This document shows, piece by piece, positions 4,164-61,817 of a stretch of 64,000 nt of DNA (the stretch's first letter is position 1; each line of letters begins with the position of its first letter). A model generated the notes under the pieces. The model did not search any database, was not told where the DNA came from, and saw nothing but the letters and a program-made list of their open reading frames with translations. The stretch comes from a virus. The stretch lies in the IMG/VR virus record IMGVR_UViG_3300047311_000826, positions 1 through 64,000 of that record; one strand, given 5' to 3'. The position numbers and the translations under genes were made by a program.

Positions 4164-4919
4164 TTATTGCTTCCGCCTCCCATGCGCGAAGTACGGGAAG
4201 GCACGGCGTGGCGACTGCTGGTGCGAGTGCAGCCGCTCGGCGATATCGCGGGCACGCATCATGCCCTGGCGGAACCGCGTGCCGTGGTACTGCGCCAGTT
4301 GCGGCGCCGACCACGGCTTGGCCGGCATCGCGTACAGTCGCGCGATGGTGCCGTCCAGCATGGTCTCGAACCAGGTGGTGAACAGCTCGGGGAGCACGTT
4401 CAGCCTGATCACGTCGAAGCGTATGGGACGCAGCGCCACCAGTGCCCAGCCGGAACGTTGCGCCGTTGGCGTCATGAAATCCACCAGTTGCGCCGGCGGA
4501 TTGATCTCCCAGTGCGTCAGGCCGTGCGCGTACAGGACCCAGACCACGCTCATCTCGGCGTTGAACGGATTGAAGTCCACCGTGCTGACGCCCGGCCCCA
4601 TCACCCAGTTGATCTTACTCCGGTAGTAAGTGCTCCGGATGCAGAACTCCTGAATGGCGTTCCACAACTCCATCTGGATGACCGGCAGGGTGATCGCCGG
4701 CAGCAGCGTCTGGATGTTGTCGTAGAGCCGGTCGAAGCCGCCCGTGGTACCCACCGACCCATCGGCGGGACCACCCGGACCGGTATCGACGTCGGGTTCG
4801 ACCGGACCACCGCCACCGCCGACGGTTCGTTCAATCGGGCTGAACCCGATGACGAACTCGCCAATCGCGGAGCTGAAGGTGGTCCTGGCTTCCGGGCGGT
4901 TGATGAGAGTGGACGACAT
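4164..4919 (-). CDS. hypothetical tail or fibre-associated protein (251 aa)
   Basis: ORF track. It lies between two fibre genes with its stop adjacent to the next ATG (4163/4164). It carries one copy of the dispersed motif at 4615-4630. Confidence 0.55.
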   Translation of the reverse strand: MSSTLINRPEARTTFSSAIGEFVIGFSPIERTVGGGGGPVEPDVDTGPGGPADGSVGTTGGFDRLYDNIQTLLPAITLPVIQMELWNAIQEFCIRSTYYRSKINWVMGPGVSTVDFNPFNAEMSVVWVLYAHGLTHWEINPPAQLVDFMTPTAQRSGWALVALRPIRFDVIRLNVLPELFTTWFETMLDGTIARLYAMPAKPWSAPQLAQYHGTRFRQGMMRARDIAERLHSHQQSPRRAFPYFAHGRRKQ

Positions 4920-4928
4920 ATGCGTGCC

Positions 4929-9793: not shown

Positions 9794-10585
9794 GACAACT
9801 CCTTTTGGTCGGAGGCGGTAACTACGGTCGTAATCTCGTTTCCAGGCTTTCAGGTCCGCGTCGGTCTTACGTCCCTGACGATCCCACCGCGCGACCAATG
9901 ACGGCTTCACGATGCCTTTCTGCTTCTCCGACGACCGCTCGAACCCACAGGCACGGCATCCTTGCTGGCGCGACACCAGCATGTTCACCGTCACGCTATG
10001 CACCGCGTCGTGCTTCGCGCAATGGATCGTGATCTTGTCCTTGGTCTTGGTGCCAGCCAACGATTGAAGCATCCAATGCGGGCTGGCGGCGGCGATCATC
10101 GCCTCGATGTCTTCCTGGGTGCGGCGCTTCTTCGCGCGCACGGCGCTCATCATCTCACTCTGACGTTCGGCGGCGCCGGGTGCCTCCCAACGAACCTTGC
10201 GTCCGTAGGCCAGCCGTTCAGCGAGCAACTCTTTATTCGCTGGTTCAGAAGCCCACGCACGTTTACGTGTAACAGCTTCAGCTGAGAACACGGCACCTCT
10301 GTTAGACGTCACCACGTAACGAATATTATAACCTGGCTTCAGCGTATTTACCCAATGCTGCTCCCGCGCTTCCAGGAACTCGACCGGGCATTCTTCCAAT
10401 ATACCAGTCTCGAACGCATCCCAGCCGCCCGAATGTTTGAACGCGGCGGCCAGGCGTGAGTTATGCGACTCACCCCGTTCCAGCTTCCACTGGTGTGTCT
10501 TCAGCCTGTGATCGATCCGTGTCGCGATGCCGACATACATCTTTCCGCTCTCCCGGTGGCGGATGAAATATACCCCTGATGCCAT
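9635..10585 (-). mobile_element. free-standing GIY-YIG homing-endonuclease gene (316-aa ORF)
   Basis: The N-terminus GVYFIRHRESGKMYVGIA..R...H....ESHNSRL...E..W...LKPGYNI gives the GIY-YIG, Arg, Glu and Asn motifs. A central C..H...C..C element follows. The 10.26-10.67 kb segment is visibly lower in GC. The gene has its own promoter-like element and lies directly after the capsid gene. Confidence 0.85.
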
Positions 10586-11645: not shown

Positions 11646-12686
11646 TCATGACTGACGGAAGCGTCCTTCCATGGGCGCGGCGATGATGTCGCGTTCGATA
11701 CGGTCGGCTTCCGCCTCGCGTCCCGTCCAGCGACCTTGCTGCTTTTGCCTGTAGAAGGAGTTTACATCAGCCGCCGTCCAGATGCGTTGCTCGGGAGCGC
11801 CGGGCGCTGGCGACGAGACCGCTCGGCCTCGACCCGGCACCGCCAGATCAGCGAGGGGTAACCGGTCCGCCGGAGGGGTCACCTCGGTCTGGACTGGCTG
11901 TATCCCCGGCCTCTGGCCGACCACGGTCTGCTCGTTCTTGTACGCTCGGAAAAAAGCGACTGTGCGGGCGGCGTCGCCCGCGTTGTAGGCTTCATCGATC
12001 ATCTGCTTACGCTTCCGACCGCTGAACATATCCATCTGGTCGAGCCAGAGGATGAAGTTGGGGTCGTGATTGATCACGTCCCAATCCGGTATGTCACGCG
12101 CCAGCGCGGCGTCGACGCGGTTCTGCATGGAGAAACTCGCCAGCTGCTGGTTGCCGCCCTCGACGGACAGCACGCGGCGCTCCAGGTCCTGGATCATCGG
12201 CGCCAGTCTGGCCTCGGTCCAGCGCTGCGTCGCCTCGATCAGGTCCTGGCCATAGGTGTCGACGTCCTCGCGCGGGATCTCGCGCACGGGCGGCGGCAAG
12301 GGGCGCGTCCGTGGTTGTTCGAACGTCTCCTCGGCGCGCCTGGGCTGGACATTCATCTGCGCGATCATTGTCTGTAACGAGTTTATCTGGCCGCGCAACT
12401 CGGGGATCTCTGAATTATATTTACCTTGCAACGTATTATAACGCTGCTCCCAGTCCACCGTGGGTTGCTGCCTTGATGGTTCCGGTTCCGGTGGCGGCGT
12501 CAGCTCGAACGGCTGGCCCGGGGTCTCCTCCTCGCCATTCACGACCGGAGTGACGCCCTCCCCGGCGTCGCCCTCGTCCAGGGGGCGGACATTGGCGACG
12601 CCGGCCTCGCGCGCCAGCTCATCGGCGCGGGCCGATGCACGTCGAACCGCGTCGGGGATATGCGGCGCGTAGTTGGTCTCAGACAT
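11646..12686 (-). CDS. putative scaffolding protein
   Basis: 346 aa, acidic and Pro-rich at the N-terminus and helix-rich at the C-terminus. It lies between the portal-side genes and the capsid gene. Inference is from position only. Confidence 0.45.
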   Translation of the reverse strand: MSETNYAPHIPDAVRRASARADELAREAGVANVRPLDEGDAGEGVTPVVNGEEETPGQPFELTPPPEPEPSRQQPTVDWEQRYNTLQGKYNSEIPELRGQINSLQTMIAQMNVQPRRAEETFEQPRTRPLPPPVREIPREDVDTYGQDLIEATQRWTEARLAPMIQDLERRVLSVEGGNQQLASFSMQNRVDAALARDIPDWDVINHDPNFILWLDQMDMFSGRKRKQMIDEAYNAGDAARTVAFFRAYKNEQTVVGQRPGIQPVQTEVTPPADRLPLADLAVPGRGRAVSSPAPGAPEQRIWTAADVNSFYRQKQQGRWTGREAEADRIERDIIAAPMEGRFRQS

Positions 12687-20336: not shown

Positions 20337-21163
20337 TGGAGCCTCCTGGGTTCCGCGAGTTATCCCATAACACCAACGACGATACAAGCGTGAAGTTAAC
20401 GTGCCTTTCGTAAGTGGGGTTGGTAATTTTTCGTAACGTTTTAAGTTTGTGTTTTCAGTAGTGGACTTCATGTGGGTGGGGAGGACCCAACGCGGCCGGC
20501 GGCGGACCCCCCGCCATGGACAGGTGCCCCTGGGGGGCCAGGGGGGTGCCCGACGGGAATAAACCCATACGCCGCATGGTGTCGGGAGAGTTCAACGCCC
20601 GAGCCTGTCGGGGTTGCCGGGGCCTAGCCTGTCTTGTCCGAGAACCACACGCCCCGTGACCGCCATCGCATGCGGAGCATAGCGCTCCCCCGATGGGACA
20701 CGCTGCACTCGTGAGACCTATTGATACGAGGCAAGCACAATATCAGGGTTCGGCCGCGCGTGCTTTAGCACAGCATGCGCGAGGGTTCCGAATAATCAGC
20801 ACCGGCGCTATGGAAGGCCGGGTGAGGCAAGATAAGCACAATCAGGGCGGTATCTGTCATGATGGTAACAAACGTCATGGGCAAGCTTTAGGAAGCTTGG
20901 CGCGATTGTGGCACGTAGAGCGTGGCGTATGATGGTTTACGTGATCCATGGGCGTAGGGACATGTGGGATAAATCGCATGGGCTCAGTTGATACGAGCAT
21001 GATTGGAAAGTGGTTTGTTACCATAGCATCGCGCCAAGAGAAGCAACCTGAATAACAGACATCGTGCGAACGGCGCGGCGTGGCATAGTCTCACGTCGCG
21101 CCGTTCGTATGTTTGTTCCCGCCGTCAATTGACGGGTTCAATTTACTACGGGAGCAAAAAACG
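20337..21163. promoter_or_regulatory. roughly 0.8 kb non-coding control region between the divergent late (-) and early (+) arms
   Basis: No convincing ORF. Direct repeats: GAGGCAAG..AGCACAAT..CAGGG (20728-20748 and 20823-20847) and TTGATACGAG (20721, 20988). A 12-bp long-range inverted repeat (20862-20873 / 21013-21024), G/C hairpins at 20500-20560, and the palindrome CCGTCAATTGACGG (21122-21135). Confidence 0.6.
21067..21107 (+). terminator. intrinsic-terminator-like hairpin inside the control region
   Basis: CGAACGGCGCG (21067-21077) pairs with CGCGCCGTTCG (21097-21107), with extra inner pairs, followed by TATGTTTGTT. No protein-coding gene lies upstream on the plus strand. Confidence 0.5.
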
Positions 21164-21628: not shown

Positions 21629-21676
21629 TGATAAACACCAGGAAATGGTTCCAGTGTTTAATACCGGAGTAAAACA

Positions 21677-22639
21677 ATGGCGAAAAACATCATTGAGCCG
21701 TCAGCCCGCGTCAAGGATATCGCCAGTGCGATAACCTTCGAGTGCAACACACTGCGTGGATCGCTGTCTGACATGGCCGATGCCATCGAAGCGCGCGACG
21801 CGGCATCCGAGGCTCAGAGCAAGACGCGCATCGCGGTAGCGGCGCGCATCGCGGCAATGTCCGATGCCGAGCAATGGACGGCGGGCGAAGTCGCGTTCGC
21901 GTGCAATCATGCCGCGACCCAGGCGAAAGAGGGTAACAACAATCCGGATGACGAACGCACCGCCAAGAGTCTGGGTGTGTTCATATCGGAGATGAAAACC
22001 TTTGCCTGCCCCAAGGTGCGGGCTCAGTTCCCAACGATCCATGACGCGTGTAAGGCGGCATGGGACGATGAAGAGATGATGAAGGCAACGGCGGAAACGA
22101 AAGAGGACCGCGCCAACCTCGATCTCCCCGTGCATCGCTGGCAGTCCAGGTTCTATCACCTTGTCATGAACATCTCACGCGCCGTCAAGGACGGCACGCT
22201 CGTGGTCGGTGGCATGGTTGACATCGAAGCCTGGGCACGCGCCAACGATCCCAACCATAACGAGAAGAAAATCGCCGCGCGCCTTGCCACCATCATAGAC
22301 AACCTCGAAAAGATGCATAAAGACTTTCCGCTGGCGGAGATGGCGGAGGCCGCCGGCTTCCTGCGCACCATAACAACCAAGGAACTGATCGCGGCGCGGG
22401 CTAATCGCGAGGATACCGAGGACATGACGGACGCGGACGATATCATTGGCACACAAGCGCCAGTTACTCCGGTAGTAAAAGTATCACCTGTGGTAGTGAC
22501 CATTACCAAGCCCGCGCCGGTAGTTGTCCCGGTCACGGCCGCACCGAGCGCGGTTGATGACTTGCTGAACGATATCCCGTCCTATCCCACCTCGAACGTG
22601 ACGATGGAGCTGGCCGCCATGTGCTTCGGTCGAGGCTAA
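21677..22639 (+). CDS. hypothetical early protein (320 aa)
   Basis: ORF track. Preceded by TTTAATACCGGAGTAAAACA-ATG. The C-terminus is Val/Pro-rich. No recognisable domain. Confidence 0.6.
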   Translation: MAKNIIEPSARVKDIASAITFECNTLRGSLSDMADAIEARDAASEAQSKTRIAVAARIAAMSDAEQWTAGEVAFACNHAATQAKEGNNNPDDERTAKSLGVFISEMKTFACPKVRAQFPTIHDACKAAWDDEEMMKATAETKEDRANLDLPVHRWQSRFYHLVMNISRAVKDGTLVVGGMVDIEAWARANDPNHNEKKIAARLATIIDNLEKMHKDFPLAEMAEAAGFLRTITTKELIAARANREDTEDMTDADDIIGTQAPVTPVVKVSPVVVTITKPAPVVVPVTAAPSAVDDLLNDIPSYPTSNVTMELAAMCFGRG

Positions 22640-22650
22640 CCCCGGTTCAC

Positions 22651-22720
22651 TACGGTCGTGCCAGTTGGCACGACCGTAACTAATAGGCTAACGACCTGAT
22701 ATCGTTGGCCTATTAGTTAC
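22651..22720 (+). terminator. two adjacent long hairpins after gene 21677-22639
   Basis: Hairpin 1: TACGGTCGTGCC-AGTT-GGCACGACCGTA (22651-22678, 12 bp), which contains a dispersed-motif half-site. Hairpin 2: GTAACTAATAGGC (22676-22688) pairs with GCCTATTAGTTAC (22708-22720). Confidence 0.6.
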
Positions 22721-23185: not shown

Positions 23186-23286
23186 CATACAGTTCTACCT
23201 ATGGTTGAAAGTCTTCGATGCCATACCGATCCAATGATATTATTTACGACCGTAGTTGGTGTTAGTTTGTTAGTGAAACCCTGAAA

Positions 23287-23736: not shown

Positions 23737-23753
23737 ACTACGGGAGTAAACCA

Positions 23754-24419: not shown

Positions 24420-24451
24420 CGCTCGAACTCACTACGGGAGTGAAACCAACA

Positions 24452-25004: not shown

Positions 25005-25074
25005 GCCAGTCCGATACCAGTATCCCGTGAGGGATCTGGGAGCGGCGGCGAGGTAATTAATACGGGAGTAAAAT

Positions 25075-28005: not shown

Positions 28006-28046
28006 GTTTACGACAGTAGTAGAATAACTCCCAAGGAGAATAACAC

Positions 28047-30836: not shown

Positions 30837-30851
30837 TACGGGAGTGAACCA

Positions 30852-40259: not shown

Positions 40260-40350
40260 GCATGAGGCTGGATGTAACGTGCCTTTTGTTTACCACCCCC
40301 CGCGAAACGAAAAAACGTAACTACCGTCGTAAAATAAGGAGTGAAACCAT

Positions 40351-44900: not shown

Positions 44901-44981
44901 CTGAACACCGAGGAACCCATCGCCGGCACGCGCCCGCCAGCGAAGAAGGCACGCAAGGCACCGACCGACTTAATCCGGTAG
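41976..44981 (+). CDS. bifunctional primase-polymerase (AEP) / SF3 (D5-like) helicase
   Basis: 1001 aa. AEP-like motifs are LVMDADVKRD and NSGYGFHWYW. The helicase Walker A is STESGVGKSSAI and Walker B is LIRYWDEL. Confidence 0.8.
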   Translation: MEVSSVVEETNTGTEQFLARVVPAQGNYLTITWPGPNPKAGWPYRSYKPSQTDQAADILRWATRRGVDAYHAVASFNMAEISVNTRGDQVTRARREQTNVHLIRTLVMDADVKRDGDGKDPTNTFHDRRKAIEWLVGFCKATSIPMPNLAVNSGYGFHWYWILEDPITLAAWQPMADSLKNAMLANGWVGDTGPTVDGARILRPPGTMNFKAGKDKGVPVTVLPRFTLADYPNQWIADALAPWMGMTQTRARTGTGGASITMLGPRPAHLGTPNAALNQAAHGGLESRYKFSEIAKKCEQVKLSLASNGKGDPYPLWYLRHITLSVFTSDGRDFVHEFSRGDPRYVPADTDAAVLRAEDERDRKGLGAPLCAQYDTTRPGVCDTCPFKGQIKTPLVLGAEADDLPFNYRRRAVNGEPRIERREGSGEDVEWKLLFEGDVADPRLDAVSIGGHRLTMTYRLAGKEYPVSGTAADMTTQIPVGYFERQGMAVTRHTAAHIGDFVMAWITQLRMRQATRNDVVRPFGWNFNAAGERSGVAIAGTLYRTDGREEAVAGGDPKILAMYRPAGDIKHWKRAAQLFEGTGRPDLQAIIATSFGAMLISLCGDVRGMTLNFWSTESGVGKSSAIKVGQSVWGDYKLMQSMQDTPNAVMRSLSEPRILIRYWDELRVRKDYQEQFVEMIFTIPQGKERARLHSDTTLREVGEWETMLVFTSNRPCQDYLLARDDGTDSGMARVLEIEMAKVTTAYDPLAGQHIKLCETNYGHAGRVFAKYVATHLPEVQAKLATILKSLGTGLEMQQDERFSVTAMACTLVGAAIARKLGLFDFDLKGINDVLTRAFRTQREQRSTRTLVSADGGMDIEEIVNEFIYSQADYRLRTHAFATLGGGRVEAIHSPKGNVVRLQIADALKVVRVSRPAFQEWLRDRNRPASTIVEHLKTKMGALEHRKVIGAGTGFGGGGLTWCLDIPLTGRLADIVLNTEEPIAGTRPPAKKARKAPTDLIR

Positions 44982-44999
44982 TAAAACAGAGGGGGAAGG

Positions 45000-46337: not shown

Positions 46338-49300
46338 CTAGTGGTTGGCGAAGCTCCCCGTCTCCATGAGCTGACGCTCGCCGGCCTTGGGTAGCCTGAG
46401 GCCGAACGCGCCCGGATGCAGCGTGCCTTTCCGGCGTTCGTTCAGCTGCTGCAGCAGCTGATCATGGGTGATCTTCGAACCGAAGTTGACGTTCCCGTCG
46501 GCGTTGAACCGGCGGATGTCCGACATGACGGCGGCGCGGTCACCGGGGTCCGCTTCGAGCCACCTCTGGACCAGTCTGCTCCGGGTCTCGTTCATATGGT
46601 CGCGTGCCTGGACGATGGCCTGCCGACCCATGCGCGCCTCGGATACGCTGGAGGGCGCGATGCCGACCGCCTGGTAGGCCACGTCCAGCGGACTGATCTT
46701 CGACGGTGCCAGGATCTGCTTGCCGCGCGCGTCGACAGCGCCCTTGGTGGCGAGCCCATAAGCCTTGACCGGGTCGCGCAGGATGCGTGGCAGCATGGCT
46801 ACCGCGCCGCCTCGCAGTTCGCCGTCCATCATCTTGGCCATGCCGCTCACGATGCTGCCCACGTCCTCGCCCGCCGCGCCGAGCATGAGATGGCCGCCGA
46901 ACTCGGCGAAGTCCTTCGGCGAGTAGCCATTAAGCTGGGGTATGTTCAGCATGTTGTTCACACCCAGCCGGTGCGACATGTCCGCGCCGAACAGATGCGG
47001 CACGCCCTGGCCCACGATCTCACCCAGGGTGGGGCCGATGGTCTTCGCCAGCCACTGCCGCATCTCCAGCACGCGATCCTTGGGTTTGTGACCCGTCGCC
47101 AGGTCGTAGGCGCCACCCAGGTAGCGCACGGGATCGGCGACCCAGGTCAGCGCGCCCGCCATGAGCGAGTGCATCATGACCGTGCCGGTGAATTGCAGGA
47201 AGGCTTCCTTACGCACCGCCGGATCGACGCCCTTGCCGAACGAGTCGCGCATCAGGTTGGCGATCAGCCAGGTCTCGTTGAGGCCGTATTGTTTGAACTG
47301 CATGATCGGCGCCGCCGCGCGGCCGAACATGCCCTTCTCCGTGGTGATGCGCGCCCGGTTGGCCACCGAGTAGTTGGGCGCCTTGCGCAGGGTGTTCTCC
47401 GCGAAGTCCATCGCGTCCTTGATGCCCTCGCCCTTGCCGCGCGCCGTCCTGAACGCGGCCCACGCGCCGCTGATGCGGCTCATCTCGTCGCTGGCGTGGG
47501 TCGTGGCGCTGGATATCTCCAGGAAGCGGTCCCACAGATTGCCGGCCGTGGTGGGACGCGACAGTTCCCTGAGCGACGCCGCCTCAGTGTTGCCGAACAA
47601 CCCGAGGTCGGTGAAGTGTTTGAAGAACCGGTTCACTTCACTACCGTCGTAACCCCTGGTCAGTAATCTTTGTTTGGCCATCTCGGCGAAATCGTAGTTG
47701 ACCGAGCTGAGCGGCTTGCCGATCAGCGCGTCGAGCGTGTTCCTGGCACCCTTGCCTATGATGGATGGCGCGAGATCCTTGAGCGACCGACTCAACTCCA
47801 ACGCGGCGCGTCCGAAGCCATGCCGGGCTCCGATGAATACGGCCATCTTCATGTGCATCTCGGCGGCTTCGACCGCCACGCGGGACAGGCTCATCATGCT
47901 CTGCGCGTAGCCGAACGCCGAGACCTTCCGCGCCAGGGCGAACCCACCCGCGTGGTTCAGTTCGTCACCGTTCTGAAACCGCTTGCGTAGCTCGTGGTAA
48001 AGCTGGTCGCGCAACACGCTGTCGCCATCCCCGGCGCCGGCCCGCTGGTCGTTGAACGCCTTCATCCTCTCGAAGGCCGCGTCCCGCTCACCGCCGTGCA
48101 TTATGGTGCCGATGCGCCGGCCCGATGCCTGGAGGTCGGTGCCGAGGGCACGCGCCACATCCTTGGACGCGCCCGCCACGTAGCGGCGCCTGGCGGTGGC
48201 GCGCTCCTGGCCGGACGCGTACTGCATCTGCAGGTGCGCCGCCATTTCCTCCAGCGCGTTGGCATGCGCCCGCAAGGCGGGGTCCCGCCGGACCGCCGCG
48301 ATCATCTCATCGACCACGGGGGAAAGGCGCATCTGCCGTTGCGCCACGATATCGTTGCGCTCGCGCACGTCCTGGACGTCGGCCACGCCGTCGGCCAGTT
48401 GCTTGTTACGGAACGCCGCCGCCTCGCTCGGCTTCTCGAAGAACTGCACGCCGTATCCGGGGTCGCCGGGTTGCCCGCCATACTCGACGACGAAGTCACC
48501 GTAGCGGCGCATCGGGAAGTAGTCCCCGTCGACGAAGCCCATGCGGGTCAGTTTGGCCATGCCCCTGGCTATGCGCTTATGATCCTGGGCGATGGCGGCG
48601 TTGTCGGGGTCGGACAGGAACGCGTCCAGCCGCTCCTTGCTGGCCATGGTGTGGCGCATCAGTGCCTTCTCGGCGTCGGTCGCGTTGGGCATGAACCGAT
48701 TGACCAGGTTGTCGGCCACCGCCTGCCGCTCGACGGCGTATTTCTCGGTCAGCAGGTCACGGGTTTTGACATAGAGGGCTTGCTTCTCCGGCGTCATGGC
48801 GTCGAAGCGCGACTGCAACGCACTCAGTTGGGCGCGCTCGTCGGGCGTGGTCAGGTGCGCGTTGGCGTCCGCCTCGCGCGTGCCCAGGGCCGCGCGGGCA
48901 TACCCGGCGTCGTTCATCAGTTCGGCCACGTCGTCGTGCTTCACAAGTTCGCGCGCGACCTCGGCGAACCTTGGCGCGAACTTGCGCAGGAAGCGGTCGC
49001 TCGCCACCTGGGCGTGTTCCTGCGCCGTGCGGATGGCCACGGCGTGGTTGACGTCGCCGTCCTGGAATTTACTACGGAAGCGATCAATCAGCCGGTCGAA
49101 ATGAATGGTGGACAGCAGGTTGCGGAACGCGCCGGGTTTGAGGTTATCGCCCACCGCGTCCAGGGTGCGCTCGGCCACGTGGCTGGCGCGCTCGCCGAAT
49201 GCCTCGTGCGCGGACCACGCCAGCGGTGCCGAGTCGGCCCGCAATCGGGGATCGGGGTGCAGGTATTTCTCGTTGAACTTCGCGGCACGCTGCGCGATGT

Positions 49301-52300
49301 CGGTGACGGGCTGCATGATATGATCGAGCAGCGTGTATTCGGCGCCGCTTTGGGCTCTGCGTAACCCCAGCCCATCACGTACCAGATCAACGAAACTACT
49401 CCATACGGACCGCCCGCGCGGACGCGGTTGCATACCAAGCGACGTCATTTTCTTACGGAACTTGTCCGACGCCACGAGGCTATTGGCGAAAGACCACAAG
49501 TCCGCGTTGGTCATCAGCATCGTATGCAACTCATGCTCGTTGCTTAGCGCATACATGATGCTTTCAGCCTGGCGTTTGGTTTCCGGGACATTCTTACCGA
49601 ACTCTCCCACGGCCAGCTTATCGCTGAAACCTTCCCTGAGCGCCTCCGCTATCGCGTGCAGGGCCTGAAGATCTTTATGTCCTGGGTCGTGCTGCCGTAA
49701 AGTTTCTATGTAATGGAAGAACGCCGAGTGCACCATCTCATGCAGCGCCGTCTCCAGGTGCGTCCCATGCTGATGCTCCAGGTCAAGGTTGACCATGATA
49801 TGTTCGAGGCCGGGATCCTGTTCGTAATGGCCGTAAGTCCGTTGTCTTATCCGGCCGATGTCCTTATCACCGATATAGCCCAGTTCGTGCCCTCGTTCCG
49901 CCGTTACTACGGGAATACCACGCGCCAGTTTGTATAGTTGCCGGGCCAGTGCCGCCAGATCAGGACGTTCCGCGATGACCAGCGGGTCCTGCATGATGTT
50001 GCGCGCCAGATCCTGGTCGGTGAATGGCACATCGTATTGTTCCGATGTGCGTATCGCGTGTTCCACGCCGGCGGTCAGGCGCGAGTCCGTTAATACCCGT
50101 AACGAATTGGCTGATGTGGGATCGATGCCCGTGGACGTTGGCGCGTGTTCCAGCGTTTCGCCGCCGCCACGCTTCGCCAGGCTCTCCCTGAACGCCGCGC
50201 GCGTGGCCATGGCCTGCGCCTGATCGGCGACGGTACCCACGGGGTCCACGATCCTGGCCCGCGCTTCCTTCAGCGCCGCGATGCGCTCGGGCGCGACCTG
50301 AGCCAGTCTGCCTTCCAGTATTTTGGTTCGCTCGGCGTATTTCTCGCGGGCCTCCTTCGCCGCTTCGGCGGTCCGGGGTTTCTGTTTCGCGCCCGGCATG
50401 TCCTTCTTCGCGCCCGCCAACAGGTGCGCGTCAAGTTGCTTCCGGTGCGTCTCGGCCAGCAGCGGGTTGCTCACGCGTTTGATCTCGGCGTCGAACGCGG
50501 CGGCCAGGCTCGTGGCATCGGCGTTGCGCGGTCGCCCCACGGTGCCCTTTTTGTCGAACTCGGCCTGTGCCTGTTCGACCGTCATGGGATCGGTCGGATC
50601 GAGTACCTTGTTGATGTAGTCGGCGGCCTTGCGCTCCTGGACATGCGCGACCGTGACGGGTTTGTTCTTGGTATCGAGTGCCATGGTCAATCCGGCGCTC
50701 TCACCCTCGCCACCGCCCACGGCGGTCTCCTCGATCCCTTCAGCGGACGTGGGCTTATCAACCTTGCCGCGCTTCTGTTCCTCCTCGCGTACGACCGAGG
50801 CTTCGCTACGCGTGGGTTCATCGCCGGTGCGCGTGACCAGACGCTCGCCCATGACCTTCTTGTGGAACAGCTGCGCCAGATCCTCGCGGGCTTTTTGCGT
50901 GACCTCCGTGCCGCCGGCGCGTGGCGCCATGATACGATGCGCGATATCGACCAGTTGCTCGCGCGAGCCGTTGCTCATGTGCACCAGGTTGCCCAGGTCC
51001 CGCAGTGCCTCCGTCATGGCCTTGCCCCTGGGCGTCCCTGGCGGCAGCCCTCCCATGGCCTGCTTGCGCACGGTCTCTATGTCAGCGAGCGCCTGGCCCC
51101 GCGCCAGTTCAGCGGCGCGCACGGTCTGTAGGTCATCCGTGGTCGGCGCGGCGGTCTCTTCCTCGCGCGCGACGTAGGCCTGGGGTCCGGCCTTCTTCTC
51201 CGGGATGACGACGGTGGGTTGCTTCTTGCGGCCCTTGGATGCCGCGACCGCCTTCTCGACGGCGGGTTTCTCGGCCGGGACCGGGGCCTCCGGAGTTTTC
51301 CCGCTTTGTTTCGTATCGACAAGGGTCGCCAGTTCTTCCTCGGTGGGTCCGGCGGCCACGGTCTCGCGCGTCTTGCGTAACGTTTCGGCGGACGAGCGCA
51401 TGCGCGCTTCCAGATCGGCCTGGGCCGTCGAAGGGCGCTCGGTAGCCGGTGCCGAAGGGAGTGAAGTCTCCGGCACCGGCGGAGCCACGGTTTCCCTCGG
51501 GGGAACCAACCCCTCGGACCGCTCTGGGCGTGATGCGGGAACGCCCGGCTCGACGGTAGAGGTTGGCGGAGTCGGTGTCGACGCCGCTTTACGCCGCTCC
51601 TCGCGGTCGTAGCGCGTGGCCACGTCGTTCGGCGACATGTTCTTAAGTTGTGTCGGCGACGCGCCGTATTCGCCGACCAGCACGTCCACCATCTCGGATT
51701 TTGTCTTGCCCTTGGACGGGCGCTCGCCCGGTGCCTGGGGTTTTACTCCCGGAGTAACCGGTGGTGTGGACTCTGGTGGCGCGGCCCCACCGCCGCCGCG
51801 TGGAGCGGCTGGCGGTGGCTCCACGGGTGTGTTGGGTGGCGGCGGTTCACGCGGGAACATCTCGCCCTGCGTGGGCGCTGGCGGACGCACCTGGGTCGTG
51901 GGGTCGAACAGGTTGCCTTGCGATGCTTCCGGTGGGAGCCCTGGCTGCACGCCGGCTATGGCCGGCTCGCGCGGCGCTTGCCCCGCGCCCGCCTGACCCT
52001 CGGTGAACATCTCGCCCTGGCCCGACATGCCGGGCAGCATGCCCTGGCCCGGCGTCGTGGGGTCGAACGCCGGAGGTGGCGGTGGCGGCGGTGGCCCCAG
52101 CGCCTCGCCCAGTGCCGCCACCGCGTCGGGTGGCACGCCCTCGGGGGGTCTGACCTGGGGTGCTTCCGGTCTGACCGGGTGCAGCGCGCCACCGGCGGCG
52201 CCTATGACCGCGCCCGTCAGCGCGCCGCTGGCGACACCCCGCGCGATGGCACCCTGGTCGAACTCCTGCCGCGTGCCGATGCCCTGCTGGAACTGCTGAC

Positions 52301-57319: not shown

Positions 57320-57978
57320 CTGCGCCGCGCCCACCAGATGATCGGGCGCACCCCCGAGAAGATCCGGTCATGCAGATCCGGATCGATGAACATGGAGCGG
57401 AACACCTCGTTGCTGCCCTGGGGCAGCAGGAATGCTTCGAGGTCCCACCCGGCGACGCGGTTGACCACGCGCAAACTGTCGAACGGGATGAAGCGCGCGC
57501 CCAGATGTTGTAACGATAGCGCATCATCCTCGGCGCCGAAGCGGGCGCAGTCGAACACGAACAGCTTACCGCCCGGCCGCACCACCCGCCACGCCTCGCG
57601 CAGCGCGTGCACGAACCCGTCCGACTGGCACAGGGAATACAGGAACATGGCGCCGTCGAACGACGCCTCGTCGAACGGCAGCTCGTGCATGTCGCAACAG
57701 AACGTCGCCACGTCCGGCGGCGCCTGCGACAACTGGAACGAATTGTTGTTGACCAGCCAGAACCTCAGGTCGGGACGTAACTCCCGTAGTAAACGGACCG
57801 GCTCGCCGAACCCGCACCCGATGTCCACCCAGGTCGAGTCCTGGTCGGGCGCCATGTGCCCCAGCAGGATCGCCATGTGCTCGCGGTCGTCCTTGTCCAG
57901 CCGGCATCCCTGCAGCACGCGGATGCCCCTGGCGAGCGCGCCGCGCGACGCCTCGGTGAGTTTGTCCTGGTCGATCAT
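57316..57978 (-). CDS. class I SAM-dependent methyltransferase
   Basis: The start MIDQDK makes an ATGA overlap with the upstream stop at 57975. Motif I is WVDIGCGFG, post-I is LVNNN, and VVRPGGKLFVFD follows. No DPPY/NPPY-type DNA methyltransferase motif is seen. Confidence 0.7.
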   Translation of the reverse strand: MIDQDKLTEASRGALARGIRVLQGCRLDKDDREHMAILLGHMAPDQDSTWVDIGCGFGEPVRLLRELRPDLRFWLVNNNSFQLSQAPPDVATFCCDMHELPFDEASFDGAMFLYSLCQSDGFVHALREAWRVVRPGGKLFVFDCARFGAEDDALSLQHLGARFIPFDSLRVVNRVAGWDLEAFLLPQGSNEVFRSMFIDPDLHDRIFSGVRPIIWWARRR

Positions 57979-58844: not shown

Positions 58845-59305
58845 GACACGTTCTCCGGCAGGAGGTTACTACGGTAGTGACGCGGCCTTAGATTGAGATA
58901 TCTGCACTGATCCCTGGTCATCTCCATGATCACCAGGTCCGACCCGTCGGGATAGACGTCGTCGATGACGGCGGCCACGGTCCAGCCAAGATGCTTGTTG
59001 ACGCGCAGCGCGACATGGTTGGTCGACTTCACCAGCCCCATGGCCTTGCGGCAGTTCAGTTGCGCGAACGCGTAATGGAAGATCATCCAGAGGAAGTCGC
59101 GCGTCACCCAGTTATCCTTCGACCCCGCCGAGTGCATCATGAGCGAGGAACCCAGATATCCCGTGAACACGACACCGCCCACGGTCTTCCCGTCGCGGTG
59201 CATGGCCACCACGTGGTCGGTCTTCTCGTTGAACACGCCCTCGATGCGTCCCATGACCCAGTCGCCGTCGCCGGGATGGTTGATGCGGATCTCGCGCTGG
59301 CTCAT
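58841..59305 (-). CDS. putative GNAT-family acetyltransferase (154 aa)
   Basis: ORF track. The layout ...VGGVVFTGY...HSAG...FHYAFAQLNCRKAMGLVKSTNHVALRVNKHLGWTVAAV... resembles a GNAT core. The similarity is judged by eye only. Confidence 0.4.
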   Translation of the reverse strand: MSQREIRINHPGDGDWVMGRIEGVFNEKTDHVVAMHRDGKTVGGVVFTGYLGSSLMMHSAGSKDNWVTRDFLWMIFHYAFAQLNCRKAMGLVKSTNHVALRVNKHLGWTVAAVIDDVYPDGSDLVIMEMTRDQCRYLNLRPRHYRSNLLPENVS

Positions 59306-59526
59306 TTCAGTTTCGCCCCGATATCGCCCTCGGTCACCAGGCCAAGCCTGACCAGGTCGTTCAATGTGACCGCGCGGTCCAGCGGATTACCGCGATGGCC
59401 GCCCAGCGACTCGACACCCTGGCGTAGCTGACTCGCCACCGTCACCAACGATTGCAGGTCGCTGATCGGCTGGCTGATCGAAGGCACGTTGAAGTTCCGG
59501 GAAACCTGGTTTGGGTTGAGCGCCAT
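59302..59526 (-). CDS. hypothetical small virion-module protein (74 aa)
   Basis: The start at MALNPNQVS overlaps the upstream stop by 1 nt (TGATG). It is the in-frame part of track ORF 59302-59664. Confidence 0.45.
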   Translation of the reverse strand: MALNPNQVSRNFNVPSISQPISDLQSLVTVASQLRQGVESLGGHRGNPLDRAVTLNDLVRLGLVTEGDIGAKLK

Positions 59527-61817
59527 CACACGGTCTTCAGTTCGCGCATCGTCGACGCGAGTTCGACGCTGTGGATCGAACATCTGGCGATGATCTCGAA
59601 CTGCCAGTTGAACGCCTTGCGCCCCGACGGGAAGCGGAAGATGCAGCGTGTCTGTTGCAGCCACTCCTCGTGGATCAGGTCCTGCGATGGACCGGCGTAA
59701 AGCCGGAACCGCGCGTTGACGCCGGGCGGCAAGGTCAGGTTCTCCATCGGCGTGTCGGGCGGCGGGACGACATCCGTCGGCGCCGGATCAAGCACCTCCG
59801 GATCGAGCGATACCTGGCAGGCGCCCAGCGACACCGGACTGGCGAAGTAGAACTCGCGCGACCGCCAGCGGTAGATCAGCGGCGGCGTGTCCATGCTGTC
59901 CCATTTGTACACGACCTCGTTGGCCATGATGTAGGCGTCGCCCGTGTAGACATCGTTCCAGATGCTGACCACGTCGACGAACGGCGACACCGAGCATATC
60001 CCCAGGCGTTCCTCGGTGTAGTCGATGAGGAAGCCCATGCCGGTGCCGTTGATCGCGAGGTATTGCGCGCGGTGGCGGCAGGCGACGAGGTTATCCCCGT
60101 GGAACCGCTTGATCCAGATCTCGCGCGTGAGGTTGCTGAGCGTCTGGTTCTGCGCGCCGTAGTAATTCAGCGCCACCAGACCATTGGGCGAGGAATAATA
60201 GACCCCCGCGAGGTCGGTCACCACCGAGCCGCGCGAGATGCATGGCTCCGGCGTCTGGATCTGCGCGAAGATGTACTGCGCCGGGGAATTGCCCGTGCCG
60301 GTGCTGGGGAACCCCGAGGTCAGCACGACCAGGGACTGCTGCCATAGCGCCAGCGCCACGATGGGATAATGCAGGCTCTGGTCGTAGCCCGCCGGCCACG
60401 CGTTGGGCCGGTTGGGTTCACAGAAGTGGATGGTGTTGCCGGTGAAGCCCACCAGCATGCCACCGGGGATCGAGATCAGCCCGTCCAGGTCTTCCACGGG
60501 CGGCGCGAAACTCACCGATGCCAGTATGTTGTTCTGCACCACCGTCGTGTTGGGGATGGTATCGTTGTAGACCGTGATGCCGATGGCCAGGTCGACCACG
60601 AAATAGAACGTGGCGCCGCCGGAGACCCCGGCAACGGTACGATACAGCCTGGTCGTGACGATGGGTGGGTAATTCTTGCCCGACGGCGTGGGCGGCGCCG
60701 AAGCGGGCAGGTTGGCCACGTGCCATACCGCGTCCGTGGCACCCGACTTCACGATGGAAGGCGCGGACGGCGAGCTCTCGGTGCCCAGCGAGTCGACGAA
60801 CGTATAACAGTAGGACCGGTCCTCCAGTGGCGCGTCGCCGCTGGGATCGTAATGCACGTCGAACGTGAGGCCCGAGCCCGTCCCGGAAATCAGCGTGGGC
60901 GTGATCGGATTGGCCGGCGTGGTGGTGTAGTGCGTGTCGGGCCCTATCGGCATCAGGTCCCTGGCGCCCATGTCGAACCTCACGGCCGCGCCGGTAGGCC
61001 CGACCGCTCCCGGTCCCGCGTCGATCAGGCGGACCGGCTCGTTCGCCGGGTTGACGGGATTGGTGTTGTAAGTGCCGGGTAACGGCACGTCGACCACCGA
61101 CACCAGGGCGCCGCCGACGACCTGCAGGTGCACCTCGATCTGCGCCCCCTCACCCGTGGTGCCCTGGAACAACGCCGACGCGGCGTCCGTGCCCCCGGTG
61201 CCGGCACTGGCGATGCCGACGTTCACCGCCTGCGTGGTGTTCAGCAGGAACCGCTGCGGCAGGTGGCCGAACGCAAGCACGCCACCAGGGACTTCCAGCA
61301 CGGTGTTCTGCGTGTAGTTGGCGCCTGGGGTCACGACGGTGGCGCCATTCGGGACGAGCGCCGGGATGCCGCCGCCAATGGGTGACACGACGGGCGCCGC
61401 CGCGTCCGACGGATCGACGGGGATGAACCCCAGGCTGTAGTGTGGGTCGCCATTTTTAATACGGTCGTAAGTATTCCACCAGGCGCCCGCGTCGGGCACG
61501 CCGGGCGGGTTGGTCCAGAACACCCGGTGCAGCGTGTCGTTGGCCAGAGGCGAGACGCAGACGCAGGAGAACTCGCTCGGCAAGGGCAGCCATTCCTCGG
61601 GGTCCCCAGGCTTGGGACCCGGCACGCGATAGGCCTTGCGTACCTCCCAGGTCGCCTTGCCGGACAGGTCGATGACCGGCTCGGGCTGCGGCAACCCGTT
61701 CAAGGGCCCGTGCGCCAGGTCGGTGTTGGTGGCGCGCGAAGCCATGTTGTCGGGCAGGAGCCTGGGCTCCCGCCTGGGTATCTCACCTCCGAAATCCTTG
61801 ACCGCGAACGCGACCAT
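59526..61817 (-). CDS. large tail protein (763 aa), possibly tail tubular B / nozzle-like
   Basis: ORF track. The call rests on size and on its position upstream of the ejection proteins (T7 gp12-like synteny). No diagnostic motif. Confidence 0.4.
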   Translation of the reverse strand: MVAFAVKDFGGEIPRREPRLLPDNMASRATNTDLAHGPLNGLPQPEPVIDLSGKATWEVRKAYRVPGPKPGDPEEWLPLPSEFSCVCVSPLANDTLHRVFWTNPPGVPDAGAWWNTYDRIKNGDPHYSLGFIPVDPSDAAAPVVSPIGGGIPALVPNGATVVTPGANYTQNTVLEVPGGVLAFGHLPQRFLLNTTQAVNVGIASAGTGGTDAASALFQGTTGEGAQIEVHLQVVGGALVSVVDVPLPGTYNTNPVNPANEPVRLIDAGPGAVGPTGAAVRFDMGARDLMPIGPDTHYTTTPANPITPTLISGTGSGLTFDVHYDPSGDAPLEDRSYCYTFVDSLGTESSPSAPSIVKSGATDAVWHVANLPASAPPTPSGKNYPPIVTTRLYRTVAGVSGGATFYFVVDLAIGITVYNDTIPNTTVVQNNILASVSFAPPVEDLDGLISIPGGMLVGFTGNTIHFCEPNRPNAWPAGYDQSLHYPIVALALWQQSLVVLTSGFPSTGTGNSPAQYIFAQIQTPEPCISRGSVVTDLAGVYYSSPNGLVALNYYGAQNQTLSNLTREIWIKRFHGDNLVACRHRAQYLAINGTGMGFLIDYTEERLGICSVSPFVDVVSIWNDVYTGDAYIMANEVVYKWDSMDTPPLIYRWRSREFYFASPVSLGACQVSLDPEVLDPAPTDVVPPPDTPMENLTLPPGVNARFRLYAGPSQDLIHEEWLQQTRCIFRFPSGRKAFNWQFEIIARCSIHSVELASTMRELKTV

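What the first reader, a model, noticed from the sequence alone, without database searches (positions are those of the whole stretch)
4615..61473. About 40 copies of a quasi-palindromic ~16-nt motif, fused to the start sites of most early genes and scattered inside genes on both strands
The consensus is TTTAC(T/G)AC(G/C)G(G/T)(A/C)GTAAA, with inverted arms TTAC../..GTAA. There are three classes of copy.

- Class 1: the right half supplies the GGAG Shine-Dalgarno a few nt (about 5-12) before the start codon. Copies are at 21142, 21657, 23736, 24031, 24429, 25055, 25241, 25655, 27558, 29467, 30831, 34846 and 38664.
- Class 2: a version without GGAG (cores CGTCGT, GGTAGT or CGTAGT) lies 10-30 nt upstream of a separate Shine-Dalgarno. 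Copies are at 23243, 26244, 28007, 35338, 40319 and 44970, plus 9819 on the minus strand.
- Class 3: intragenic copies in different reading frames and both orientations. They are at 4615, 22464, 26897, 28448, 30028, 31599, 32877, 36908, 42351, 43194, 47638, 49068, 49903, 51741, 57777, 58865 and 61454. They are translated variously as LLRE, LRRE, LRPE, YDGS, YRS, VTPVVK and NSGSN, so protein constraints cannot explain them.

The 12-mer TTACTACGGGAG occurs at 21143 and 32877 and, as its reverse complement, at 57777. Some copies are near-perfect 17-bp palindromes (42351 TTCACGACCGTCGTAAA; 51741 TTTTACTCCCGGAGTAA). One copy forms the terminator hairpin at 22651. The motif is far more extended than an ordinary ribosome-binding site.

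Possible roles are:
- an operator array for a dimeric phage DNA-binding protein;
- an RNA hairpin (UUACU-loop-AGUAA) that sequesters the Shine-Dalgarno and acts as a translational operator;
- a phage-specific promoter or RNA-processing site;
- a site-specific nick or modification target. TACTCCGG in some copies recalls the phiKMV nick consensus, but that resemblance is weak.
Basis: seen in the sequence. Interest (0 to 1): 0.85.

Follow-up and report, generated by a model that had tools for sequence, protein, structure and literature searches.

The report
Palindromic site array marking early genes
An uncultivated soil phage carries about 38 copies of a 17-base palindromic DNA word, sitting at half of its early gene starts (often doubling as the ribosome-binding site) and written into coding sequence elsewhere; it most likely serves as a genome-wide array of docking sites for an unidentified dimeric DNA-binding regulator.

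Summary
A position matrix finds 37-38 copies of TTTAC(T/G)(A/C)C-N-G(T/G)(A/C)GTAAA where about 0.3-1.2 are expected. Interior-of-gene copies number 17 against 1.15 under synonymous-codon shuffles. Nineteen of 36 early genes carry a copy at their start, against 1 of 40 late genes. Class 1 and class 2 are one site: when the right half-site is TTTACTCC, its complement GGAGTAAA serves as the Shine-Dalgarno sequence.

The core ACTAC-N-GTAGT is shared by diverged relatives from soil metagenomes, at orthologous gene starts and at several orthologous intragenic positions. There, rare codons and even amino-acid changes follow the motif.

An RNA or DNA hairpin is not supported. Symmetric positions show no positive covariation, and predicted folding energy equals that of shuffled sequence. 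A promoter is unlikely: nothing outside the 17-mer is conserved, no phage RNA polymerase was found, and orientations are mixed.

The best reading (about 0.5) is a double-stranded DNA site array for a symmetric dimeric protein, comparable to mycobacteriophage stoperators or phiC31 conserved inverted repeats. Here it occurs in a phage with no lysogeny genes. The binding protein is unidentified, and the winged-helix candidate at 30852-31244 is weakened. Function is inferred, not shown.

The parts
4614..4630 (-). Intragenic copy CTTACTCCGGTAGTAAG in the minus-strand gene 4164-4919
   Evidence: Matrix hit of 23 bits. The orthologous position keeps the motif in L017, L034 and L035, with a Y-to-F amino-acid change.
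9818..9834 (.). Intragenic copy GTAACTACGGTCGTAAT in gene 9635-10585
12538..12554 (+).
   Evidence: Found. An orthologous copy TTTACGACAGTCGTATT is present in relative L075.
21142..21158 (+). Start-fused copy; GGGAG serves as the SD for ATG 21164, the first early gene
21657..21673 (+). Start-fused copy for ATG 21677
   Evidence: Orthologous starts in L036 and L041 also carry a copy.
22463..22479 (-). Intragenic copy in 21677-22639, specific to the window lineage
22646..22662 (.). Motif-like arm of the long hairpin just after the stop of 21677-22639
23243..23259 (.). Palindromic copy 36 nt before ATG 23287, downstream of a sigma70-like promoter at 23156-23185
23734..23750 (+). Start-fused copy for ATG 23754; its left arm overlaps the upstream stop codon
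24032..24048 (+). Start-fused copy for ATG 24053
24428..24444 (+). Start-fused copy for ATG 24452
25056..25072 (+). Start-fused copy for ATG 25075
25241..25257 (+). Start-fused copy for ATG 25262; lies in the last codons of 25075-25260
25655..25671 (+). Start-fused copy for ATG 25674; lies inside the 3' end of 25262-25690
26241..26257 (.). Palindromic copy 31 nt before ATG 26280 (MoxR-like ATPase), with a separate SD
   Evidence: A copy is retained at the orthologous starts in L036, L041, L042, L044 and L039.
26897..26913 (+). Intragenic copy in the ATPase gene
27561..27577 (+). Copy TTTAATACGGGATTAAC directly before ATG 27578 (tiny ORF ahead of 27649)
28007..28023 (.). Palindromic copy 32 nt before ATG 28047
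   Evidence: A copy is retained in L036, L041, L042, L044 and L037.
29463..29479 (+). Copy before ATG 29496 (metallopeptidase/VWA protein), followed by a second SD
30028..30044 (-). Intragenic copy in a lineage-specific linker insertion of the VWA gene
30832..30848 (+). Start-fused copy for ATG 30852 (winged-helix protein)
31599..31615 (+). Intragenic copy in 31369-32193
32876..32892 (+). Intragenic copy in the DNA polymerase gene, encoded with rare TTA and CTA codons
   Evidence: Conserved as a motif in L036, L041, L042, L044 and L038; absent in the motif-poor L037 and L048 and also in the motif-rich L039. E/S amino-acid changes track the allowed motif variants.
34846..34862 (+). Start-fused copy for ATG 34863
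35337..35353 (.). Palindromic copy before ATG 35365 (ParB_N-like protein)
36905..36921 (.). Copy written into codons 2-7 (S T T V V N) of the PD-(D/E)XK nuclease gene 36902
   Evidence: Conserved in L036, L041, L042, L044, L038 and L039; lost in L037 and L048.
38664..38680 (+). Start-fused copy for TTG 38685 (helicase)
40317..40333 (.). Palindromic copy before ATG 40351
42349..42365 (.). Near-perfect palindrome inside the primase/helicase gene
43192..43208 (.). Intragenic copy in the primase/helicase gene
44969..44985 (-). Copy 23 nt before ATG 45000, in the last codons of the primase gene
47637..47653 (.). Intragenic copy in the 2362-aa virion protein gene
49068..49084 (+). Weak copy (11.9 bits; left half only)
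49903..49919 (+). Intragenic copy in the 2362-aa protein gene
51742..51758 (.). Intragenic near-perfect palindrome TTTACTCCCGGAGTAAC
57777..57793 (-). Intragenic copy in a minus-strand late gene
58865..58881 (.). The only late-gene start-associated copy, 29 nt before the start of 57975-58844
61455..61471 (.). Intragenic copy in the internal virion protein gene 59526-61817
   Evidence: Conserved in L035; lost in L034 although the amino acids are similar.
30852..31244 (+). Candidate binder (weak): 130-aa protein with an N-terminal long helix and a C-terminal winged helix
   Evidence: Weak MarR_2/HTH Pfam hits. The AlphaFold model has mean pLDDT 75, and its C-terminal 60 residues superpose on IclR/MarR/ArsR winged helices. 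Homologues occur only in motif-rich close relatives. However, homologues with the same recognition helix occur in motif-less phages.

Best explanation
The motif is a double-stranded DNA recognition site: two inverted 8-bp half-sites around a central base pair, 17 bp in all. It is read by a symmetric dimeric sequence-specific DNA-binding protein that has not been identified.

About 38 sites form an array. It is dense in the early region (about one per kb, at half of the early gene junctions) and sparse in the late region. Sites are placed where coding constraint is lowest: intergenic gaps, the last or first codons of genes, and variable linkers.

In tight gene junctions the site is dual-coded. 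The half-site variant TTTACTCC is oriented so that its complement GGAGTAAA is the Shine-Dalgarno sequence of the downstream gene.

Inferred function, not shown: gene-by-gene control of early transcription. This could be a roadblock or silencing mechanism, for example early shut-off, comparable to stoperator or CIR arrays of temperate actinophages.

Shown here: enrichment, symmetry, absence of hairpin covariation, nucleotide-level selection inside genes, and conservation across relatives. Inferred: protein binding, the identity of the protein, and the regulatory outcome.
For: - The consensus is a perfect 17-bp palindrome with an odd centre. Information is confined to the 17-mer.
- The G-variant half-site occurs equally often on the left and on the right (38 against 38). 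The only left/right asymmetry, G11, creates GGAG on the mRNA strand next to start codons.
- Copies occur in both orientations, on both strands and inside genes. There are 17 interior copies against 1.15 under synonymous shuffles. Rare codons TTA, CTA and GTA are enriched about 17-fold inside copies.
- Intragenic copies at 32876, 36905, 42349, 4614, 12538 and 61455 are kept at orthologous positions in relatives that are about 70% identical at the nucleotide level. Amino-acid substitutions there interconvert allowed motif variants.
- Copies are retained at orthologous gene starts, but their variant, their distance to the start and their fusion to the SD all change.
- In the distant relative L039 the same core sits 8-40 nt upstream of a separate SD at nearly every early gene. 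So the SD is not the conserved part.
- Spacing in the early region is more even than random: CV 0.55 against 0.94, p about 0.002.
- The hairpin alternative fails.
Against: - No binding protein is identified.
- The winged-helix protein is restricted to the window's clade and is absent from the fetched parts of the motif-rich L039 and L050. Its recognition helix is almost unchanged in unrelated phages that lack the motif.
- The tight association with gene junctions and the fusion to the SD would also fit an RNA-level role.
- In L039 the upstream half is significantly better conserved than the downstream half: 0 of 19 against 7 of 19 G/C variants, my count from the listing. A symmetric dimer does not predict this.
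- No integrase or repressor was found, and a scan of 185,579 representative bacterial and archaeal species genomes with VWA-protein peptide patterns found no encoded relative. The temperate-phage analogy therefore has no lysogeny to serve.
Confidence: 0.5

Rival explanations
1. Start-associated RNA element. The transcribed motif is recognised as single-stranded RNA sequence just 5' of or overlapping the Shine-Dalgarno sequence. The reader could be the ribosome (an S1-type A/U-rich enhancer) or a phage or host RNA-binding factor or nuclease. It would tune or shut off early-gene translation, in the manner of T4 RegA/RegB or the uncharacterised cluster K SAS.
For: - 19 of 36 early starts carry a copy against 1 of 40 late starts.
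- The GGAG half always faces the start codon in fused copies.
- One copy is placed in the first codons of a gene that has no intergenic gap, and it is conserved there.
- In L039 the upstream half is better conserved than the downstream half.
- Each lineage has a homogenised RBS plus spacer.
Against: - A palindromic consensus has no meaning for single-stranded recognition.
- About 17 copies lie inside genes, many antisense to the mRNA. Several of these are conserved with codon override.
- In L039 the distance from the motif to the start varies from 8 to 40 nt.
Confidence: 0.2
2. Compact promoter or RNA-processing site for an unrecognised phage-specific transcription or processing activity, placed before each early cistron.
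For: - It is early-gene specific, highly conserved and about the length of single-subunit RNA polymerase promoters.
- It lies immediately upstream of genes.
- A strong hairpin at 21064-21110 sits just before the first motif-bearing gene, so that gene may need its own start signal.
Against: - No RNA polymerase was detected by Pfam, PHROGs or PDB sequence search, including in the large virion proteins.
- No conserved -35 or -10 partner exists.
- In SD-fused copies a transcript starting in or after the motif would lose the SD.
- The site is symmetric and occurs in mixed orientations inside late genes.
- The sigma70-type scan of 19500-39000 (early region as far as scanned) is at background: 7 sites against 7.5 expected.
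Confidence: 0.1
3. Boundary sequences for module shuffling. Short repeats at gene junctions act as recombination substrates that exchange early genes between related phages, as proposed for PeSL cassettes of T4-type phages.
For: - The early regions of relatives are mosaic.
- A block of about 1.8 kb (35290-37070) is about 94% identical to L041 against about 70% elsewhere. Its left edge lies 10-60 nt from copy 35337.
Against: - The right edge of that block lies 100-150 nt past the nearest copy.
- 17 bp is short for homologous exchange.
- This model does not explain conserved intragenic copies with codon override or the late-region copies.
Confidence: 0.07
4. RNA (or extruded DNA) hairpin that sequesters the SD or protects mRNA ends.
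For: The consensus could in principle pair as a 6-7 bp A/U-rich stem.
Against: - At positions 6/12 the combinations are T-A 50, T-C 36, G-A 36 and G-C 2. At positions 7/11, A-G pairs (54) are as common as A-T (54).
- There is no positive covariation: one-sided p is 0.67 in the window and above 0.99 with relatives.
- Mean MFE is -1.0 to -1.6 kcal/mol, indistinguishable from shuffles. The arms pair in only 5 of 19, 4 of 16 and 0 of 19 copies.
Confidence: 0.03
5. Target of site-specific nicking or base modification of virion DNA.
Against: - The phiKMV-type consensus is not enriched: 14 matches against 9.6 +/- 3.1 at up to 3 mismatches.
- Known nick sites are strand-specific (from memory), whereas this site is symmetric.
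- The bias towards early genes and gene junctions is not expected for nicks.
Confidence: 0.05

Closest known systems
Stoperators of cluster A mycobacteriophages (L5, Bxb1, TipsytheTRex)
   Same: More than twenty repressor sites are spread over the genome, mostly in short intergenic spaces between genes. They act on elongating RNA polymerase as well as at promoters (PMC9283540).
   Different: Stoperators are asymmetric 13-mers bound by a monomer, and their orientation follows transcription. They belong to temperate phages and serve lysogenic silencing. Here the site is a 17-bp palindrome, is fused to the SD in many copies, also lies inside genes, and no lysogeny genes or immunity repressor were found.
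Conserved inverted repeats (CIRs) of Streptomyces phage phiC31 (from memory; Ingham et al. 1994, Wilson et al. 1995; not retrievable here)
   Same: A 17-bp conserved inverted repeat is present in many copies in intergenic regions of the early region and is bound by the phage repressor.
   Different: phiC31 is temperate, and its CIRs are associated with phage-specific early promoters. There is no sequence similarity, and no homologue of the c repressor was looked for or seen here.
[quoted passage not shown]
   Same: - A conserved motif contains GGAG a few nt before the start codons of a subset of genes.
- A 17-bp inverted-repeat element is linked to it.
- Hairpin formation is not supported by the pattern of departures.
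- The left repeat is better conserved than the right.
- Function is still unknown (PMC3203893; PMC12699233).
   Different: - The SAS is an asymmetric 13-mer, GGGATAGGAGCCC, with 0 matches here.
- The ESAS is two 17-bp repeats with a variable 4-13 bp spacer upstream of the SAS.
- SAS copies are almost never intragenic (6 of 125).
- Here a single 17-bp palindrome carries the SD in one arm, and nearly half of the copies are intragenic.
KorB operators (OB, TTTAGCSGCTAAA) of IncP plasmid RK2 (from memory)
   Same: A short palindrome with TTTA...TAAA ends is present in a dozen copies at, near and far from promoters. It is bound by a dimeric ParB-family global regulator.
   Different: It belongs to a plasmid, not a phage. 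The sequence and length differ. The ParB_N-like gene here (35365-36411) is present only in the window and L041, so it cannot be the family-wide binder.

Membership tests
Cluster K SAS/ESAS | Match to the 13-nt consensus GGGATAGGAGCCC with up to 2 mismatches | tested here: not met
   0 matches in the window.
Cluster K SAS/ESAS | SD-containing motif located a few nt upstream of start codons | tested here: met
   The 13 fused copies have GGAG (GGGA at 27561; the SD proper at 29463 is a second GGAG further downstream) about 4-11 nt before the start.
Cluster K SAS/ESAS | Almost exclusively outside ORFs and in one orientation | tested here: not met
   17 interior-of-CDS copies in both orientations.
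Cluster K SAS/ESAS | [quoted passage not shown] | tested here: not met
   A single 17-bp palindrome, with no conserved sequence outside it.
Cluster A stoperators | Many sites in short intergenic spaces across the genome | tested here: met
   About 20 junction copies plus dispersed copies.
Cluster A stoperators | Asymmetric 13-mer whose orientation follows the direction of transcription | tested here: not met
   The consensus is palindromic. The only asymmetry is the SD-creating G11.
Cluster A stoperators | Bound by the immunity repressor of a temperate phage | tested here: inconclusive
   No integrase or repressor was detected, and a scan of 185,579 representative species genomes with VWA-protein patterns found no relative. 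Binding itself cannot be tested here.
phiC31 CIR-type operator array | 17-bp conserved inverted repeat in multiple intergenic copies of the early region | tested here: met
phiC31 CIR-type operator array | Bound by the phage repressor and associated with phage-specific early promoters | not testable with these tools
   This needs binding assays and 5'-end mapping.
RNA hairpin translational operator | Stem maintained by compensatory changes | tested here: not met
   Positions 6/12 are independent in the window and anti-correlated in relatives. 72 of 124 copies are non-complementary there.
RNA hairpin translational operator | Folding energy below that of shuffled sequence | tested here: not met
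   Mean -1.0 against -0.9 kcal/mol.
Single-subunit phage RNA polymerase promoter (T7-like or N4-like) | A cognate phage RNA polymerase gene | tested here: not met
   None found by Pfam, PHROGs or PDB sequence search. A fold-level search of the 2362-aa protein was not done.
Single-subunit phage RNA polymerase promoter (T7-like or N4-like) | Strand-specific orientation with the genes (T7-like), or a stable DNA hairpin (N4 early) | tested here: not met
   Mixed orientations and no hairpin complementarity.
phiKMV-type localized nick sites | Match to CGACNNNNNCCTACTCCGG | tested here: not met
   14 matches against 9.6 expected at up to 3 mismatches, and none better. Nicks themselves are not testable here.

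The most novel reading that the evidence does not exclude
A phage with no lysogeny apparatus uses a genome-wide array of dual-coded sites. Each 17-bp palindrome is both an operator on DNA and, through one arm, the Shine-Dalgarno sequence on the mRNA. A single unidentified dimeric factor, which could be phage-encoded, virion-delivered or host-encoded, could then switch off (or time) nearly every early cistron individually. That would be a 'lytic-phage stoperator' system, with sites that evolution also writes into coding sequence to keep the array evenly spaced.
Probability: 0.3. Interest if true: 0.7.

Novelty: new variant of a known kind. Interest (0 to 1): 0.55.

Why it matters
Multi-copy regulatory words in phage genomes are known from a few temperate actinophages. 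Their mechanisms are only partly understood, and the SAS/ESAS elements are still unexplained after 15 years.

This case gives a clean, statistically unambiguous example in a proteobacterial-type, apparently lytic podovirus lineage from soil. It shows three features together:
- palindromic symmetry without hairpin covariation;
- fusion of one half-site with the ribosome-binding site;
- codon- and residue-level override inside essential genes such as the DNA polymerase.

If a binder is found, it would show how a small phage times a 24-kb early region transcribed by host RNA polymerase. It would also provide a compact operator/repressor pair for synthetic biology. Practically, the motif is a precise marker for early gene starts and for recognising this phage family in metagenomes: a motif-only scan recovered relatives.

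Tried and rejected
- Near-identical DNA search in GenBank phages found nothing.
- A DNA-polymerase peptide scan of IMG/VR found nothing. Relatives were instead recovered through the motif itself and through a VWA-protein alignment.
- The genome-contig scan for prophage relatives found nothing.
- Rfam and tRNA scans found nothing.
- The sigma70 promoter scan was at background, and no partner element flanks the motif.
- The winged-helix protein 30852-31244 as binder is only partly supported. Its phyletic pattern fits the window's clade, but L039 and L050 have the motif without it. Unrelated phages L061 and L063 have a 43%-identical homologue with the same recognition helix and no motif. The structure is a generic winged helix.
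- The ParB_N-like protein is present only in the window and L041. The 34495 HTH has a detected homologue only in motif-less L048. L039 has an RHH protein at a different place. No consistent candidate emerges.
- A cryptic virion RNA polymerase in the 2362-aa or 1049-aa proteins has no sequence support. Hits were an LPD39 polyvalent-protein domain and an SLT domain.
- The anti-covariation at positions 6/12 was first read as 'at most one half deviates'. That reading was dropped, because G6 plus G11 double variants are common and L075 has three G6/C12 copies. Only the absence of positive covariation is claimed.
- A resemblance of the L039 variant to the 16S rRNA 3' region, and of TAATACG...GGGAG to the T7 promoter, were noted from memory and treated as coincidences.
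- The closest cultured relative, Rhizobium phage RHph_TM3_14A, has the same gene order but not the palindrome.

Full report
**Context.** The window has 63% G+C and has the gene set of a tailed phage of about 64-67 kb.
- Minus-strand structural genes lie at 1-20.5 kb and 46.3-64 kb. They include portal, capsid, tail fibres, internal virion proteins and a 2362-aa polyvalent DarB-like protein.
- A plus-strand early/replication block lies at 21.1-45.5 kb. It includes a MoxR-like ATPase, a metallopeptidase/VWA protein, a family A DNA polymerase, a PD-(D/E)XK nuclease, an SNF2 helicase and a DUF927 primase-helicase.
- No near match exists in GenBank phages.
- The nearest cultured relatives by DNA polymerase are Rhizobium phages of the RHph_TM3_14A type (37% identity, same gene order) and Pseudomonas phage KPP25.
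- No integrase, repressor, RNA polymerase, tRNA or Rfam family was detected.
- A scan of 185,579 representative bacterial and archaeal species genomes with VWA-protein patterns found no relative.

- All listed positions carry motif-like sequence.
- TACKACNGTMGTA with up to 1 mismatch gives 17 hits against 0.16 expected. TWMTACSGGAGTRA gives 22 against 0.08.
- The family tops an unbiased k-mer enrichment.
- A symmetrised 17-nt matrix gives 37-38 copies where a 2nd-order Markov null gives 0.3-1.15, with a clean score gap.
- Counting only gene interiors, there are 17 copies against 1.15 +/- 0.92 (maximum 4) after shuffling synonymous codons within each gene.
- Rare codons are strongly over-used inside copies. 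For example, 7 of the 70 TTA codons lie in the 0.6% of codons covered by copies.
- Corrections: 19 of 36 early genes, not 'most', have a copy at the start, against 1 of 40 late genes. Copy 28448 is sub-threshold and 49068 is weak. An extra copy lies at 12538.

**Anatomy.**
- Classes 1 and 2 are one site, TTTAC(T/G)(A/C)C-N-G(T/G)(A/C)GTAAA. It is made of two inverted 8-bp half-sites chosen from TTTACTAC, TTTACGAC, TTTACTCC and TTTAATAC.
- When the downstream half is TTTACTCC, its complement GGAGTAAA is the Shine-Dalgarno sequence. That is the only left/right asymmetry: G11 occurs 57 times against C7 16 times. The G-variant half is perfectly balanced, 38 left and 38 right.
- No sequence outside the 17-mer is conserved in the window, L036 or L039.
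- Many junction copies overlap the last codons of the upstream gene. One occupies codons 2-7 of the downstream gene.

**Relatives.** A motif-only scan of IMG/VR recovered true relatives at about 70-80% nucleotide identity. Protein-alignment scans of IMG/VR and JGI metagenomes added more.
- Close relatives L036 and L041-L044 have the same SD-fused site, mostly TTTAATACGGGAGTGAA, at 9-13 copies per 10 kb.
- The distant L039 (VWA protein 43% identical) has [CT][CT]TACTAC[CT]GT[CA]GTAAC 8-40 nt upstream of nearly every early start, with a separate SD.
- L050 has CCACTAC-N(1-2)-GTAGTG.
- L037 and L038 have few copies and L048 almost none. The cultured Rhizobium phage has none.
- So the conserved entity is the palindromic core ACTAC-N-GTAGT, not the ribosome-binding site.
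- Copies are retained at orthologous starts (g21677, g23287, ATPase, g28047, VWA, PD-(D/E)XK). The half-site variant, the distance to the start and the fusion to the SD all change.

**Intragenic copies are under nucleotide-level selection.**
- In the DNA polymerase gene, E-L-L-R-(E/S)-Y is written GAG TTA CTA CGG GAG/TCG TAT in the window, L036, L041, L042, L044 and L038. It uses ordinary codons in the motif-poor L037 and L048, and also in the otherwise motif-rich L039.
- The E/S difference is exactly a swap between the allowed variants GGAG and GTCG.
- The same pattern holds at 42349 (R/S, GTCG/GTAG), 4614 (Y/F), 12538 and 61455.
- Other intragenic copies are lineage-specific, some in linker insertions. 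This is the turnover expected of binding sites.
- In the early region the copies are more evenly spaced than random: CV 0.55 against 0.94, p about 0.002. Intragenic copies fall in the long genes.

**Hairpin test.**
- At the symmetric positions 6/12 the combinations over 124 copies in six genomes are T-A 50, T-C 36, G-A 36 and G-C 2.
- In the window alone they are exactly independent (18/6/6/2). In relatives they are anti-correlated. Nowhere is there the positive covariation a stem requires.
- At positions 7/11, A-G pairs are as common as A-T.
- Predicted RNA folding of the copies averages -1.0 to -1.6 kcal/mol, no better than shuffles. The arms pair in the minimum-energy structure in only 5 of 19, 4 of 16 and 0 of 19 copies.
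- The RNA-hairpin or SD-sequestration idea, and any cruciform or N4-type hairpin promoter, are therefore not supported.

**Promoter, processing and nick ideas.**
- There is no partner element, and sigma70-like sites are at background.
- No phage RNA polymerase was found.
- In fused copies a transcript initiating in or after the site would lack its SD.
- Copies in late genes have mixed orientation.
- The phiKMV-type nick consensus is not enriched.

**Most likely mechanism.**
- A perfect 17-bp palindrome with an odd centre has the architecture of operators read by symmetric helix-turn-helix or ribbon-helix-helix dimers. It carries balanced half-site variants, occurs in both orientations, and is maintained inside genes at the expense of codon and residue choice.
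- I conclude, by inference, that the copies are double-stranded DNA binding sites forming an array centred on the early region, placed wherever coding constraint is lowest and dual-coded with the SD in tight junctions.
- The most economical function is control of early transcription gene by gene: roadblock, silencing or timing. This is analogous to cluster A stoperators (PMC9283540) and phiC31 CIRs (from memory).
- The resemblance to cluster K SAS/ESAS is also close. Those are SD-containing and linked to 17-bp inverted repeats. A hairpin is not supported for them, the left repeat is better conserved, and their function is unknown (PMC3203893 and PMC12699233). This motif fails the defining features of that family.

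**The binder is not identified.**
- The 130-aa protein at 30852-31244 is a coiled-coil plus winged-helix protein. It is found only in the motif-rich close relatives.
- However, L039 and L050 have the motif without it in the fetched regions.
- Homologues with an almost identical recognition helix and an invariant HSKQEDNN tail occur in unrelated 43% G+C phages that lack the motif.
- ParB_N-like, HTH (34495) and RHH (L039) proteins have inconsistent distributions.
- The lineage-specific flanks (TTT..AAA, YYT..AAC, C..G) suggest a fast-evolving phage protein rather than a fixed host factor. That is conjecture.

**Weaknesses of the preferred model.**
- The tight link to gene junctions, the SD fusion and the better-conserved upstream half in L039 would be natural for an RNA-level start-associated element. 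I keep that as the main rival (0.2).
- The lack of lysogeny genes means the temperate-phage analogues give a mechanism but not a purpose.

**Verdict.** The motif is real, strongly selected and family-conserved. It is a new variant of the known kind 'multi-copy operator-like arrays in phage genomes'. It is notable for dual coding with the ribosome-binding site, for its intragenic maintenance, and for occurring in an apparently lytic phage. Its function remains inferred.

Noticed in passing
window 34044-34071 and 34472-34499: An exact 28-nt repeat, GAGGCCGAGCGAGGAGTGAACCAATGAA. Two nearby early genes share an identical RBS, spacer and first codons.
   Followed up: partly
window 22640-23286: A 650-nt non-coding stretch after gene 21677-22639. 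It contains two long hairpins (22645-22720) built from motif-like halves, an extremely AT-rich patch (22880-22960) and the best sigma70-like promoter of the scanned stretch, TTGACA-18-TACACT at 23156-23185. It could be an origin or a regulatory hub.
   Followed up: no
window 20600-21160: About 560 nt of non-coding sequence ending in a 20-bp-stem hairpin (21064-21110) just before the first early gene. The contigs of relatives L036 and L041 end about 1.3 kb upstream of their first early gene, so the physical genome end probably lies near here.
   Followed up: no
window 35290-37070 vs L041 14582-16888: A block carrying the ParB_N-like gene and the next gene is about 94% identical to L041, while the rest of the early region is about 70% identical. 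This indicates a recent module exchange. The left edge lies 10-60 nt upstream of motif copy 35337, and the right edge 100-150 nt past copy 36905.
   Followed up: partly
L048 (4589, 6623, 8187, 9154, 12448): The motif-less relative carries five copies of the 8-bp palindrome GTATATAC in 19 kb (about 0.1 expected from composition). Most are inside genes. This may be a different lineage-specific word.
   Followed up: no
L050 whole locus: Highly repeated GC-rich words: GCGCGAGCCC 21 times and TGCGAGAACCC about 14 times in 10.9 kb.
   Followed up: no
window 30852-31244; L061 10001-10381; L063 10001-10384: The winged-helix protein has an invariant C-terminal YF..HSKQEDNN tail. It is shared with unrelated 55-kb, 43% G+C phages that encode Pol III alpha and an MT-A70 methylase. 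Several of the early intergenic hairpins in those phages have TTRCTCC...GGAGYAA outer arms around a GC-rich stem.
   Followed up: partly
window early starts; L037; L048; L065: Each lineage has its own homogenised RBS plus spacer. The window has GGAGTRAAaCCA-ATG, L037 and L048 have AGGAGTAAGCCA-ATG, and Rhizobium phage RHph_TM3_14A has AGGTAACCA-ATG, where GAGGTAAC and AAGGTAAC occur 17 and 15 times counted over both strands of a 30-kb stretch.
   Followed up: partly
window 25674-26276: An HNH/endonuclease VII-like gene sits in the early region of the window. It is absent from the close relatives, and only L046 has a homologue. It is probably a mobile insertion.
   Followed up: no
L065 (MN988472.1 42239-45322): The 1027-aa protein annotated 'putative integrase' in Rhizobium phage RHph_TM3_14A occupies the position of the window's DUF927 primase-helicase (41976-44981). 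The annotation may be wrong; I did not align the two proteins.
   Followed up: no
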